Shown here piece after piece: positions 30,001-33,000 of a DNA stretch of 64,000 nt (the stretch's first letter is position 1; every line of letters starts with the position of its first letter). The position numbers were made by a program. This DNA is from Escherichia coli. Its GTDB lineage: Bacteria > Pseudomonadota > Gammaproteobacteria > Enterobacterales > Enterobacteriaceae. The stretch lies in assembly GCF_003019035.1 (NCBI RefSeq), contig NZ_CP027447.1; one strand, 5' to 3'.

Positions 30001-33000
30001 TCTCCGTCTGGTAATTTTCGAATCAGTGTCAGGTCGGTTCTTTTCTCCGGTGTCTTACGCCATTCGCGATACGTCTGCTCTGACGCAAAAACACCGTATT
30101 TACCGGACATGTATAAATCGCCACAAGCCAGCACATCCACAAGGCAGCGTCGGACCGAATGCCAGCCTGCCCCAGTCGCCCTCTCCAGCTGCGACATCGT
30201 CATGCGTTCATTTTTGCGTACCAACCCGATAATTCGTGCCTTCAGCTCTTCCCGCTGTTCGGGTGTATATGCTTTTGCCACAAGCCCTCCTGAAAAATCA
30301 CCTTCACAATTCATACAAAACCAGCCGCTTTCCGGCGCTCATATTCCTGTTTCAGCAACTCAATTGGTGTTGGCCACGACGGGCGTTCTGGTGCTGCCAG
30401 TTGCCGCCGTACGGGCGGAACGCTGAAGCCATTACCAACATGCTTTGCCCATTTCGTCAGCTGCCGTTCTGCAAGCCGTTTTAACTCCCCTTCGGTCATC
30501 TGGCGCTCAATCCCCTTTGAACGCATCTCGAGACAAATGTGATACAGCACAGGCTGAGACCACGGATATTTATCGCTCCCGTCGTATCGCCAGGACTCGT
30601 TGCGCCAGCGGCAGTACTCCACCATCACGGCATCCACCGTCAGACTGAATGGATTGGCCCCGCTTTCCGAAATCAGCGCCACAAACTCAGCCAGGTCCGG
30701 AGGCCATGTTTCACCCGCCCGGCAGCGGTCCATGCACTGGCGGCAGACCTGCCGGATTTGCTGCTCAGTCATCGCACCAATCTGTGCAATCCAGAGCTTC
30801 GAAGGTGCGGCCCCGTTCTTCTGGGTCCAGCGGTTCGAATAAACCTCCCCCATGAGTTCCCACAGCTTCCACGCCGTTTCCGTCGCTGATAAATCCGTTT
30901 TCACGTTCCCACTGCTCACGTGCTGCCCGAATTTCCTGAACTGCCCGTGATGCGGTGCCACCTGGTGCTGCTGCATGGCTCCCCCCCTTGCTGACTGGTT
31001 TAACCTGTGCCCTGACGTGATTTACGTGACGGGCGAATTTCTGCTCCCACTGAACCTGCGTGAAAACTTTACCCTCCGCTGCCCAGTAGTCCCGGAAGGC
31101 GGCAAGTTCAGCTGGTGTAAATTCCGGCTCCGGCAGAGCCACTCCCCACAGAGCCGCCCGTCGTCGAAAATCCGGCGACGGATGCCAGCCATCGGTTATC
31201 GGAAATTTCCCGATGGGTTCGCTCAGGCCTTCCAGGTAATCAGGTTCCGCTGTCTGCAACGGCACGCCATTTGCCTCACTGGCCGGAGCACTCTCGCGCA
31301 CGCGCGCGTTATGTGTGGGGTTTAATTCTTTATCTGTATCTTTATCTGTCGTGACTCGTCGTGACATGTCGTGACATATGCGTGACTCGTCGTGACACCC
31401 CTCATTCTGTTTTCGTAATTTTTCCCTCTCGCGCTGCGCTCTCTTGCGCTCTGCCGGGGATTTCGCGGTTTGTGAAACGTTGCCATTGTCCTCTTTCAGT
31501 ACCTGGCGTTTTTCCCATCCAGTGATTAAATCTCCATCAAGTACCCGCCCCTGCATTGCCTGTAAAATTGAATCAATTACTTCTTCCGTCACATCAAGCG
31601 CACTTGCTAAATCTTCCGTCGTGACATCAATGTGACCACGTAGTGACACGCCGTGACATGTCGTGACATTTCGTGACGCGCTCACCAGAAGGTGGATATA
31701 CACAGCCATCACTGTTGCGATTGGCTGTCCTGACACCCTGGAAATTGTTCGCCACTTAGGATCATTTGGCATGTCATGCCATAATCTGAGCCAGGCGTTA
31801 GCCATACTCACCTCTTCTGATACCGAATCTTTTTACTCACGAGTTGCCGGAAGCGATTCGATATGGCTATTGTCAGTCAATGTACTGCCACAGCATTTCC
31901 TGCCGGGCCACCACGGTTCATCTGATTGAAACCGGCGATTGCCACTGCGACAAAATCATCAGCGTCTCTCACCAATCGCTCCCGCGTCTCCACCAGCTCC
32001 CGAAAATAAGCTGAACTGTGGCTGCGCATTCTGGCCACCAGCAAAGGTGGCATTGCCTTTTCGATCGCTGGTAACAACGCCTGAATTTTTTCAACTGCAT
32101 CAGGGGTGTCTTTCTCTACCCAGCGGAAAATTTTCTGGGTATTGCGAGCCAGGGCTTCCGGATGGCTGTCGTCATACAGTTCAGGAAACGTCATACCCAA
32201 CTCAAAATAAGCCTGGGTTATTCCAGTTGCTGGAACTTTTTCGCCATCAGGACGCGCCCAGGCATTCATCGCCATGCGGATGTGTTCATGCTTGATTTTC
32301 ATGAATCAAGCTCCTAGTAAGTGGTTGTGTTAACGTTTTGGTATCTTCCAGCTCGGGCCAAATATTCATCCAATCAAAAGGCCTTAGTTGCTGACGTGTA
32401 ACTTCACCATTACTGGCTCGCTCAATAAGGACACATAACGATGCCCCTAACATTTGACCTTTACTCAATGCCTTTCTTAGATAACCGATGCTAGTACCAC
32501 ACTCACATGCAAACATACGCTGTTCATCTGACGAAAGAGAATTGAGAAATATTCTTAATTCTTCCATAGCTACTCCTTAGTAAACACAGCAAGAATACCT
32601 ACAGGTAAACAAAAGTCAATACCCTTGGGTTGTTTACCTTGCGGTAATCGCATCTATTATTTACCTATGGACAAATATGAATTTAGACGACAACAACTCA
32701 TCAAAATTCGTGATGAGAAATGCGATGGTAAAGCGGTTAACGTGGCCAGAAAGATCGGTCGCGAGCCTTCTTATGTATCAAGAATGTTGTACCCAGAGGG
32801 GAAAAAAGGAAAAAAACGGATCGCTGATGATATGGTGGAGATTATAGAAGAGTCCTTTGGGTTACCCCGGGGATGGATGGATGGTATCGTTTCATCATCA
32901 ACGAACACAGCCTCCAATTATGAAACAAGGGTTCTAACGCCACGACAACGTATTTTTTTAGATCTCTTAGACGAACTGCCAGAAAGTGAAGCGGATAACT

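What the first reader, a model, noticed from the sequence alone, without database searches (positions are those of the whole stretch)
31340..31680. Two separated iteron clusters inside the O-like replication initiator gene
Seen: five and six copies of a 9-10-bp unit with TCGTGAC core at 31340-31400 and 31615-31680, about 230 bp apart, both within the coding sequence. Established knowledge: lambda-type origins lie inside the O gene, usually as a single cluster of four iterons. A duplicated iteron block is unusual and could reflect origin duplication or a hybrid initiator.
Basis: partly seen in the sequence, partly recalled or inferred. Interest (0 to 1): 0.3.

Follow-up and report, generated by a model that had tools for sequence, protein, structure and literature searches.

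The report
Two-part origin inside phage initiator gene
Two arrays of a short repeat inside a prophage replication-initiator gene are real and look like a two-part replication origin, but related phages from many bacteria share the layout, so it is a conserved design rather than a one-off duplication.

Summary
The core GTGAC occurs five times (31351-31396) and six times (31621-31677), all on the + strand, spaced 10-11 bp, with 229 bp between the arrays. Shuffled sequence never gives such runs. Both arrays lie in a minus-strand gene (30765..31805) for a lambda-O-like initiator, which is followed by a lambda-P-like loader gene.

The same layout occurs at the same codons in relatives from Klebsiella, Chromobacterium, Bordetella, Neopusillimonas, Pseudomonas and Aeromonas. 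A second clade has it with different cores (GCAAC, GTGAC). The gene is mosaic, but the junction lies downstream of both arrays.

Synonymous sites are far more conserved in the arrays (88% and 84% same codon) than elsewhere in the N-terminal domain (40%).

The gene-distal array is followed by an AT-rich 12-mer repeat and is found in 77 of 78 diverse relatives, so it is probably the core origin. The gene-proximal array encodes a beta-hairpin loop whose peptide follows the iteron sequence. It occurs only in some clades and is probably an auxiliary or control array.

I call it a new variant of the lambda-type intragenic origin, of moderate interest. No binding or origin function was tested.

The parts
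30765..31805 (-). Replication-initiator gene (346 aa). It has an N-terminal winged-helix domain, a basic helix, a disordered linker and a C-terminal DnaT-like domain.
   Evidence: ORF. RefSeq CDS of 1041 nt. Pfam DnaT PF17948 at aa 203-269, 62.9 bits. PHROG 1408 and 3729 'replication initiation protein'. AlphaFold2 model. PDB DnaT matches.
31618..31679 (+). Six GTGAC cores at 31621-31677, which read GTCAC in gene sense at nt 129-185. It encodes aa 43-62, ASRNVTTCHGVSLRGHIDVT.
   Evidence: The encoded peptide is the end of helix 29-45 plus a beta hairpin at 47-56. Same-codon use is 88% against a 40% background. The array carries a 21-bp (7-aa, two-iteron) insertion relative to phage Evi and 13 other homologues.
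31588..31592 (+). A single inverted copy of the core (GTCAC on +, GTGAC in gene sense), about 30 bp gene-downstream of the proximal array. It lies in the codons for LDVTE.
   Evidence: The motif GA(C/T)GTGAC is present at the same place in all eight cross-genus sequences printed. Whether this conservation is at the DNA or the protein level was not separated.
31348..31398 (+). Five (C)GTGAC cores at 31351-31396, which are gene-sense nt 410-455. It encodes aa 136-153 in the linker.
   Evidence: Same-codon use is 84% against a 40% background. An array at this position is present in 77 of 78 diverse relatives.
31320..31349 (.). AT-rich stretch directly gene-downstream of the distal array, proposed as the unwinding element. 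It holds two 11-nt repeats TCTTTATCTGT spaced 12 bp apart, is purine-rich on the sense strand, and encodes DKDTDKELN.
   Evidence: It has the lowest GC of the gene, 0.325 at 31320-31359. Repeat family D6. In 85 loci the 40 bp after the distal array average GC 0.42 against 0.61 for the gene, with 76% purine.
31327..31347 (.). Mosaic junction of the gene. Upstream in gene sense it resembles Evi/Tritos-type initiators. Downstream it resembles Rac-SA53 YdaU / PPompW-type C-terminal modules.
   Evidence: The megablast hits abut at query 628-648, which is window 31327-31347. The three sequences are printed side by side.
30311..30976 (-). Lambda-P-like helicase-loader gene. The longest ORF is 221 aa; RefSeq calls a 153-aa version in a near-identical genome, corresponding to window 30311..30772.
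   Evidence: Pfam Phage_lambda_P, 55.6 bits. PHROG 109 'P-like helicase loader'. RefSeq 'replication protein P'.
31877..32302 (-). Upstream cII-like / YdaT-family gene in the same rightward operon.
   Evidence: Pfam YdaT_toxin. PHROG 163 'CII-like transcriptional activator'.
32286..32567 (-). Cro-like / YdaS-like regulator gene. A promoter-like site at 32619-32592 (minus strand) would drive transcription through the initiator gene.
   Evidence: No promoter-like site was found inside the initiator gene.

Best explanation
The two arrays are initiator-binding repeats (iterons) of a lambda-type replication origin that lies inside the initiator's own gene.

The gene-distal array (31348-31398) and the AT-rich 12-mer repeat that follows it (31320-31349) sit in the linker-coding region, between the N-terminal winged-helix domain and the C-terminal DnaT-like domain. 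I take this to be the core origin. Initiator molecules would bind the 10-11-bp phased cores along one face of the helix. The AT-rich stretch would melt. The C-terminal domain, together with the P-like loader, would bring in the host DnaB helicase.

The gene-proximal array (31618-31679) has the same core and the same orientation. It lies in the codons for a beta-hairpin loop of the DNA-binding domain. I take it to be a second binding array for the same protein, cooperating with the distal array across about 230 bp, for example by looping, to build or stabilise the initiation complex.

The layout is inherited and conserved across a clade of phages. It is not a recent duplication and not a product of the gene's mosaic structure.

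Shown here: the repeats, their conservation, DNA-level selection on them, the AT-rich flank, the domain map and the modular junction. Inferred: binding by the N-terminal domain, melting at the AT-rich stretch, loader recruitment, and cooperation between the arrays.
For: 1. The repeats are real and far beyond chance.

2. DNA-level selection. Across eight sequences from seven genera, codon pairs that encode the same amino acid use the same codon in 261 of 295 cases (88%) in the proximal array and 176 of 210 (84%) in the distal array. In the rest of the N-terminal domain the figure is 858 of 2138 (40%). The 10-11-bp period is not a multiple of three, so these are not peptide repeats.

3. Both arrays of a locus always share one core, and the core differs between lineages: GTCAC, GCAAC, GTGAC, GAACGC. 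This fits one sequence-specific protein binding both arrays.

4. The peptide encoded by the proximal array follows the iteron sequence: ASRNVTRGH..VT for GTCAC, ATQGNADATRGNV for GCAAC, SVTQGDASVTRGD for GTGAC. In the AlphaFold2 model it is a beta-hairpin loop.

5. A distal array is found in 77 of 78 diverse relatives. It is followed by a low-GC, purine-rich stretch in 74 of 85 loci, while the flanks of proximal arrays are not AT-rich (for the window).

6. Gene context is a lambda-like replication module: a cro-like gene, a cII-like gene, the initiator and a P-like loader. The PHROG name is 'replication initiation protein'.

7. The N-terminal module with both arrays recombines as a unit with different C-terminal domains and partner genes: P-like, DnaB-like helicase, or others.

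8. Published parallels. Lambda has four iterons next to an AT-rich region inside gene O, and Stx-phage O genes carry two extra iterons that lengthen the protein (PMC7466680). Phage L gene 18 has six 11-bp repeats (PMC8022706).
Against: - No binding, melting or origin activity was tested. Every functional step is inferred.
- The N-terminal domain has no significant match to lambda O or to any Pfam family. The best is a sub-threshold match of the Evi homologue to Phage_rep_org_N, 16.6 bits against a 23.3-bit cut-off. That this domain binds DNA therefore rests on the predicted winged-helix fold and on weak CRP-like fold matches with E-values near 1.
- Most of the wider family (54 of 78 loci) manages with the distal array alone. 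The proximal array is therefore not generally required, and a control role fits as well as an origin role.
- The distance between the arrays is fixed by the protein domain encoded between them, so its conservation says nothing about looping.
- Sampling is uneven. The first IMG/VR scan returned only near-identical E. coli loci.
Confidence: 0.6

Rival explanations
1. The distal array is the origin, and the proximal array is a negative-control or autoregulatory locus rather than part of the origin. Initiator bound there would block transcription of its own gene. Alternatively it would titrate or 'handcuff' initiator, as the second iteron sets of plasmids P1 (incA) and F (incC) do.
For: The proximal array has no AT-rich flank. 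It is dispensable in most of the wider family (54 of 78 loci). It lies about 130 nt into the gene, downstream of the only promoter-like site found, so bound protein would meet transcribing RNA polymerase. Copy number varies from 3 to 8 between lineages. That P1 and F have one origin set and one control set of the same iteron flanking the initiator gene is my own knowledge and was not checked here.
Against: Nothing here separates this from the cooperative-origin reading. A phage in lytic growth has less obvious need for negative copy control than a plasmid. The array has the same orientation and 10-11-bp phasing as the origin array.
Confidence: 0.25
2. One reading: the second block is a recent duplication of the origin, or arose when two initiator genes recombined into a hybrid.
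For: The gene is a mosaic. The window allele does carry a local 21-bp, two-iteron expansion in the proximal array relative to Evi-type genes.
Against: Both arrays occur at the same codons in relatives from seven genera at 60-70% identity, and in a second clade with different cores. The mosaic junction lies downstream of both arrays. Of 80 near-identical E. coli loci, 56 have the same 6 + 5 count.
Confidence: 0.03
3. The repeats have no DNA-level function. They merely reflect a repetitive or conserved peptide in the protein.
For: The peptides ASRNVTRGH..VT and CH..SRNVT are conserved in the window's clade.
Against: The period is 10-11 bp, so successive copies fall in different reading frames. 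Same-codon use is 84-88% against a 40% background. In other lineages the peptide changes together with the DNA core.
Confidence: 0.02
4. The arrays are binding sites for a different protein, either a host factor or another phage protein, serving some function other than initiation by this gene's product.
For: Binding by the N-terminal domain was not tested. The same core GTCAC appears in distantly related branches of the family, so core sequence and initiator phylogeny do not track each other strictly.
Against: The arrays travel with the N-terminal module through every recombinant context, while the neighbouring genes change. Position, AT-rich flank and domain boundary match the lambda paradigm. 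No other phased array of this core exists in the 64-kb window.
Confidence: 0.07

Closest known systems
Phage lambda ori inside gene O (O/P replication module)
   Same: Initiator-binding repeats lie inside the initiator's coding sequence, near the boundary between the DNA-binding domain and the loader-recruiting domain. An AT-rich stretch follows them in the direction of transcription. A P-like loader gene comes next. The N-terminal domain and the origin are exchanged between phages as one unit (PMC7466680, PMC8022706).
   Different: Lambda has one array of four roughly 19-20-bp repeats with internal dyad symmetry (PMC7466680). Here there are two arrays of 10-11-bp direct repeats with a 5-6-bp core, 229 bp apart, and one of them lies inside the DNA-binding domain's coding region. 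No sequence similarity to lambda O was detected. The C-terminal domain is DnaT-like.
Stx phages P27 and 933W: six-iteron origins in longer O genes
   Same: Extra iterons inside the gene lengthen the protein: two extra iterons give 13 extra residues there (PMC7466680), and two extra iterons give 7 extra residues here. The extra iterons are bound weakly in vitro but matter for replication (PMC7466680). This is a precedent for auxiliary iterons.
   Different: In the Stx phages the extra iterons adjoin the four main ones in a single array. Here the second array is separate, and an entire folded subdomain is encoded between the two.
Salmonella phage L gene 18
   Same: It has short iterons, six imprecise 11-bp repeats, inside a lambdoid initiator gene that is paired with a helicase gene (PMC8022706).
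   Different: Only one repeat region is described. The N-terminal-domain tblastn search of the phage collection did not recover phage L.
PICI / SaPI replication origins
   Same: The source describes them as 'always two sets of iterons' (PMC6092414, legend of Fig. 2).
   Different: There the two sets flank a short AT-rich melting site and lie outside the coding sequence. Here the AT-rich stretch lies beyond the distal array, and the 229 bp between the arrays encode protein and are not AT-rich overall.
Iteron plasmids P1 and F (origin set plus control set) and phage P4 ori/crr
   Same: There are two separated sets of the same initiator-binding repeat near the initiator gene. In those systems they interact by looping or handcuffing.
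   Different: Those sets lie outside the initiator gene, are 19-22-bp units (8 bp in P4), and belong to unrelated initiators. No Rep_3-type domain was found here.
Plasmid R1 parC
   Same: It has two sets of five phased short iterons, each bound separately by one small DNA-binding protein (PMC2241845).
   Different: That is a partition site, not an origin. It is non-coding and is bound by ParR.

Membership tests
Lambda-type origin inside the initiator gene (functional class) | Repeated short sequence elements inside the initiator's own coding sequence | tested here: met
   Eleven phased cores lie inside ORF 30765..31805.
Lambda-type origin inside the initiator gene (functional class) | An AT-rich stretch directly next to the iterons, on the transcription-downstream side | tested here: met
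   GC is 0.325 at 31320-31359. The same feature is present in 74 of 85 related loci.
Lambda-type origin inside the initiator gene (functional class) | Position at the boundary between the DNA-binding domain and the loader-recruiting domain, with a helicase-loader or helicase gene next | tested here: met
   The distal array encodes aa 136-153, at the start of the disordered linker. The DnaT-like domain is at aa 203-269. A P-like gene follows.
Lambda-type origin inside the initiator gene (functional class) | The initiator binds the repeats, and replication starts there | not testable with these tools
   This needs EMSA or footprinting, mini-replicon assays or origin mapping.
Lambda O protein family (Pfam Phage_rep_O) with four roughly 19-bp dyad-symmetric iterons | Sequence membership of the initiator in the lambda O family | tested here: not met
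   There is no Pfam hit to a lambda O family, even with the E-value limit raised to 10 for the N-terminal domain.
Lambda O protein family (Pfam Phage_rep_O) with four roughly 19-bp dyad-symmetric iterons | A single array of about four iterons of roughly 19 bp | tested here: not met
   There are two arrays of 6 and 5 units of 10-11 bp.
Phage replisome organiser, N-terminal domain (Pfam PF09681) | Score above Pfam's gathering threshold (23.3 bits) | tested here: inconclusive
   The window's N-terminal domain gave no hit. The Evi homologue scored 16.6 bits (E = 0.008) over profile positions 1-119 of 121, which is below threshold. PHROG 'replisome organizer' and 'DnaD-like' matched weakly, with E-values of 4e-5 and 2e-7. 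SPP1 gp38 was not detectably related by hhalign (probability 0.1).
DnaT-like ssDNA-binding domain (Pfam PF17948) | Score above the gathering threshold, and similarity to solved DnaT structures | tested here: met
   62.9 bits against a 25-bit cut-off. PDB 6aep and 4ou6 matched with E = 3e-11 by profile. Foldseek gave target-normalised TM-scores of 0.68-0.72 to 4ou6 and 6aeq.
PICI/SaPI-type origin | Two iteron sets flanking the AT-rich melting site | tested here: not met
   There are two sets, but the AT-rich stretch lies outside them, after the distal set. GC between the sets ranges from 0.35 to 0.675.
Plasmid origin-plus-control iteron systems (P1, F) | The second iteron set acts as a negative copy-number control | not testable with these tools
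   Only the layout is comparable. No Rep_3-type initiator domain was found.

The most novel reading that the evidence does not exclude
The proximal array is a functional second initiator-binding locus that evolution has written into the coding sequence of the initiator's own DNA-binding domain. On this reading a cis-acting replication element dictates the length and sequence of a protein loop, and the reading frame in turn restricts iteron spacing. The arrangement arose or persisted in at least two lineages with different iteron sequences. It would work with the distal origin array by looping, or as a built-in control or autoregulatory site. That would make it a bipartite intragenic origin not described for lambdoid phages in the papers I could search.
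Probability: 0.3. Interest if true: 0.6.

Novelty: new variant of a known kind. Interest (0 to 1): 0.4.

Why it matters
This initiator module is very common. Part of it matches 2591 of 5426 complete E. coli genomes. Relatives occur in prophages of Klebsiella, Pseudomonas, Bordetella, Chromobacterium, Aeromonas and Ralstonia. Despite this, its origin does not seem to have been described in the papers I could search.

Knowing where the origin is, and that it has two parts, would help in three ways:
- annotating prophage replication modules, which RefSeq currently names 'pyocin large subunit' or 'DnaT-like';
- building lambda-dv-like mini-replicons from non-lambda modules;
- understanding replication and induction of Stx-related and other prophages.

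It is also a clean natural example of overlapping codes. A DNA-binding-site array shapes a protein loop, and stop-codon avoidance shapes the spacing of the binding sites.

Tried and rejected
- **Peptide-repeat explanation.** Rejected. The period is 10-11 bp, and codon identity is 84-88% against a 40% background.
- **Hybrid-gene explanation.** The mosaic is real, but the junction lies downstream of both arrays.
- **Homology to SPP1 gp38.** hhalign gave probability 0.1. SPP1 gene 38 shows only a mid-gene repeat region, so I used it only as a functional analogy.
- **Pfam assignment of the N-terminal domain.** Nothing reached threshold. NCBIfam gave only the DnaT-like part, and below its cut-off.
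- **Foldseek of the full model against PDB.** Only the DnaT domain matched with high probability, at E-values near 1e-3. The N-terminal domain gave CRP/MarR-like winged-helix hits with E-values near 1, too weak to use as evidence.
- **First IMG/VR scan.** It returned only near-identical E. coli loci. That was useful for copy-number variation but not for diversity, so I ran a second scan seeded with a distant homologue.
- **Literature searches.** Seven searches found no description of this family's origin or of a two-array intragenic phage origin. The library holds only open-access papers, so absence is weak evidence. The paper retrieved for P4 crr (PMC9942202) says only that the cosmid carries crr and a P4 origin, and nothing about how they work, so the P4, P1 and F comparisons rest on my own knowledge.
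- **Internal promoters.** None was found that the proximal array might regulate.
- **DnaA boxes and IHF sites.** I looked by eye only. I saw no convincing DnaA box, and the one near-IHF match is not conserved in the Pseudomonas homologue. Neither is reported as a feature.
- **Helical phasing between the arrays.** I considered it and dropped it. The distances vary (212-274 bp) and are set by the protein length.
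Full report
**1. The observation**

- On the + strand, GTGAC starts at 31351, 31361, 31371, 31382 and 31392.
- It starts again at 31621, 31632, 31643, 31653, 31663 and 31673.
- All eleven copies point the same way. Steps are 10 or 11 bp, and 229 bp separate the two arrays.
- CGTGAC is present in 9 of 11 copies.

Nine of the window's 47 CGTGAC fall in these 330 bp. In 200 dinucleotide-preserving shuffles, no phased run of four or more identical 5-mers appeared. The only such runs in the real window are these two.

**2. What surrounds it**

Both arrays lie in a minus-strand ORF, 30765..31811. RefSeq annotates it as 346 aa starting at the ATG at 31805.

The protein:
- It has a C-terminal DnaT-like domain: Pfam PF17948 at 62.9 bits, PDB DnaT matches.
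- It matches PHROG families named 'replication initiation protein'.
- Its N-terminal 105 residues reach no Pfam threshold. AlphaFold2 models them with high confidence as a helical winged-helix-like domain: helices 2-11, 16-25 and 29-45, a hairpin at 47-56, helices 63-70 and 74-84, a wing, and helix 97-100. A long basic helix (117-141) and a disordered linker (142-185) follow.

The gene's neighbours:
- It is followed by a lambda-P-like loader gene.
- It is preceded by cII-like (YdaT) and cro-like (YdaS) genes and a divergent repressor gene.
- Promoter-like sites occur only in the immunity region, not inside the gene.
- The window is an E. coli lambdoid prophage, 99.9% identical here to strain RM8082.

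**3. Anatomy in gene sense**

It occupies nt 129-185 and encodes aa 43-62, which are the end of helix 3 and the beta hairpin.
It occupies nt 410-455 and encodes aa 136-153, at the start of the linker.
- Directly after the distal array comes the lowest-GC stretch of the gene, 0.325 at 31320-31359. It is made of two TCTTTATCTGT repeats and encodes DKDTDKELN.
- One inverted copy of the core lies about 30 bp after the proximal array, at 31588.

**4. Is the layout unusual?**

Not among relatives.
- Phages Evi, Tritos and 689R5 share the N-terminal half at 86-89% DNA identity. They have both arrays with the same 229-bp gap.
- Homologues at 60-70% amino-acid identity come from Klebsiella, Chromobacterium, Neopusillimonas, Bordetella, Pseudomonas and Aeromonas. 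All have four proximal GTCAC at exactly nt 129, 139, 149 and 160. All have three to five distal copies followed by (A/T)AGATAAAGA.
- Ralstonia phage Hennie (36% identity) has the same layout with a different core, GCAACG. The metagenomic phage ct2G2228 has it with GAACGC.

I then took a census of 78 diverse IMG/VR loci, seeded with the Hennie domain.
- 77 loci have a distal array of three or more phased copies.
- 23 loci also have a proximal array of the same 5-mer.
- 54 loci have the distal array only.

On a neighbour-joining tree built with the loop columns masked, the two-array loci form two clades. One is the window's GTCAC clade. The other holds GCAAC, GTGAC and GAAAC cores with three to eight proximal copies. 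That tree is based on 109 columns and is only a rough guide.

Among 80 near-identical E. coli loci, 56 have the window's 6 + 5 count and 19 have 6 + 4.

**5. Hybrid or duplication?**

The gene is a mosaic. Window 30700-31347 matches Rac-SA53 YdaU and PPompW-type genes. Window 31327-31900 matches Evi-type genes. The junction is the shared AT-rich ATAAAGATACAGATA, downstream of both arrays. Both arrays therefore belong to one module, and recombination did not create the pair.

The only local expansion is a 21-bp insertion in the proximal array. It adds two iterons and seven residues (TCHGVSL). It is specific to this E. coli allele, being absent from Evi and from 13 cross-genus homologues. Stx-phage O genes offer a published parallel, where two extra iterons add 13 residues (PMC7466680).

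**6. Evidence for function at the DNA level**

- Across eight sequences from seven genera, codon pairs encoding the same amino acid use the same codon 40% of the time in the rest of the N-terminal domain (858 of 2138). The figure is 88% in the proximal array (261 of 295) and 84% in the distal array (176 of 210).
- The peptide encoded by the proximal array changes with the core: ASRNVTRGH..VT for GTCAC, ATQGNADATRGNV for GCAAC, SVTQGDASVTRGD for GTGAC. In that loop the DNA element dictates the protein.
- The coding frame also constrains the element. In the GTGAC-core clade one frame would read TGA. All 107 copies use only the other two frames, and within an array the steps alternate 10/11 or 9/12. 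The GTCAC clade uses all three frames, and its steps are mostly 10.

**7. Which array is the origin proper?**

In 85 loci the 40 bp after the distal array average GC 0.42, against 0.61 for the gene, and are 76% purine on the sense strand. In 74 of the 85 the drop is at least 10 points. The flanks of proximal arrays are not AT-rich, at 0.55-0.57 against 0.585. Together with its near-universal presence and its position at the domain boundary, this marks the distal array plus the AT-rich repeat as the lambda-like core origin. The proximal array is an added element found in particular clades.

**8. Proposed mechanism**

The sequence features above are shown. The actions that follow are inferred.
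- Transcription from the immunity-region promoter crosses the gene.
- The initiator's winged-helix domain binds the 5-6-bp cores, which recur once per helical turn and so lie on one face of the DNA.
- The complex on the distal array melts the adjacent AT-rich stretch.
- The DnaT-like C-terminal domain and the P-like loader deliver the host helicase.
- The proximal array binds the same protein. It either cooperates with the distal complex across 229 bp, or acts as a control or autoregulatory site. I favour the first, at about 0.6 against 0.25. The data do not separate them.

**9. Comparison with what is known**

The arrangement works like the lambda origin in gene O (PMC7466680, PMC8022706), but it is not a member of the lambda O family. 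No sequence match was found, the iterons are 10-11 bp rather than about 19 bp, and there are two arrays. Other points of comparison:
- Short iterons in a lambdoid initiator gene are known from phage L (PMC8022706).
- Two iteron sets are known from PICI origins, where they flank the AT-rich site (PMC6092414).
- Two iteron sets are also known from the partition site parC of plasmid R1 (PMC2241845).
- From my own knowledge, two sets also occur in plasmids P1 and F and in phage P4 (ori and crr).
- SPP1 also carries its origin repeats inside its organiser gene (PMC6316719). Its gp38 is not detectably related to this protein.

Seven literature searches found no description of this family's origin.

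**10. Verdict**

The feature is real and under selection. It is best read as a two-part lambda-type origin inside the initiator gene. It is conserved across a wide clade and is not a duplication or a hybrid artefact. I rate it a new variant of a known kind, with interest 0.4. All functional steps remain to be tested.

Noticed in passing
window 30765-30976: The longest P-like ORF (221 aa, ATG at 30976) overlaps the 3' end of the initiator gene by about 210 nt in another frame. RefSeq calls only a 153-aa version. However, the Pfam lambda-P match starts at residue 56 of the long ORF, upstream of RefSeq's start. One PHROG profile (15931, 482 positions) covers both proteins with overlapping ranges. 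The true P start may be wrong, or fused or frameshifted forms may exist.
   Followed up: partly
window 30765-31805; L099 9066-10106: RefSeq names this initiator 'pyocin large subunit' in the three closest genomes and 'DnaT-like ssDNA-binding domain-containing protein' in others. The first name looks like a misannotation.
   Followed up: no
L015-L094 (IMG/VR E. coli loci), distal array: A few loci encode initiators truncated to 156-186 aa. In four of them the printed peptide changes frame inside the distal array (for example CHDESRICHDESRQIKIQIKN and VTTSHDR), which looks like gain or loss of about one 10-bp iteron. This was judged from the peptides only. The cause could be prophage decay or assembly error.
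   Followed up: partly
window 31320-31349 and the same place in L015-L094: The number of 12-bp AT-rich units after the distal array varies in frame between alleles (DKDTDKELN, DKDTDKDTDTEL, DKDTDKDTDKDT).
   Followed up: no
L107-L121 (IMG/VR): In relatives whose iteron core reads GTGAC in gene sense, all 107 copies avoid the frame that would read TGA. Steps within an array alternate 10/11 or 9/12 instead of running 10, 10, 10.
   Followed up: yes
window 31289-31311: A GC-rich alternating purine-pyrimidine stretch, CGCGCACGCGCGCG, can form a short hairpin and lies directly after the AT-rich stretch in gene sense. It belongs to the Rac-SA53-type C-terminal module.
   Followed up: no
L004 (phage Rac-SA53 ydaU), gene nt ~425-465: The YdaU-type initiator has a different N-terminal domain. 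It shares the AT-rich KDTD stretch but has no phased direct repeats. Instead, an inverted repeat TGTTCAAACA...TGTTTGAACA lies just upstream of that stretch and may be its own initiator site.
   Followed up: partly
proteins P0001-P0037: Most NCBI entries for close homologues are marked 'partial', meaning the contigs end inside this gene. This fits a module present in several mosaic copies per genome (up to 6 places per genome) that breaks short-read assemblies.
   Followed up: no
hit H1, PP818812.1: A phage recorded as infecting Actinobacillus pleuropneumoniae carries the C-terminal module and the P-like gene at 97% DNA identity to this E. coli prophage. That is unexpectedly close for such different hosts.
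   Followed up: no
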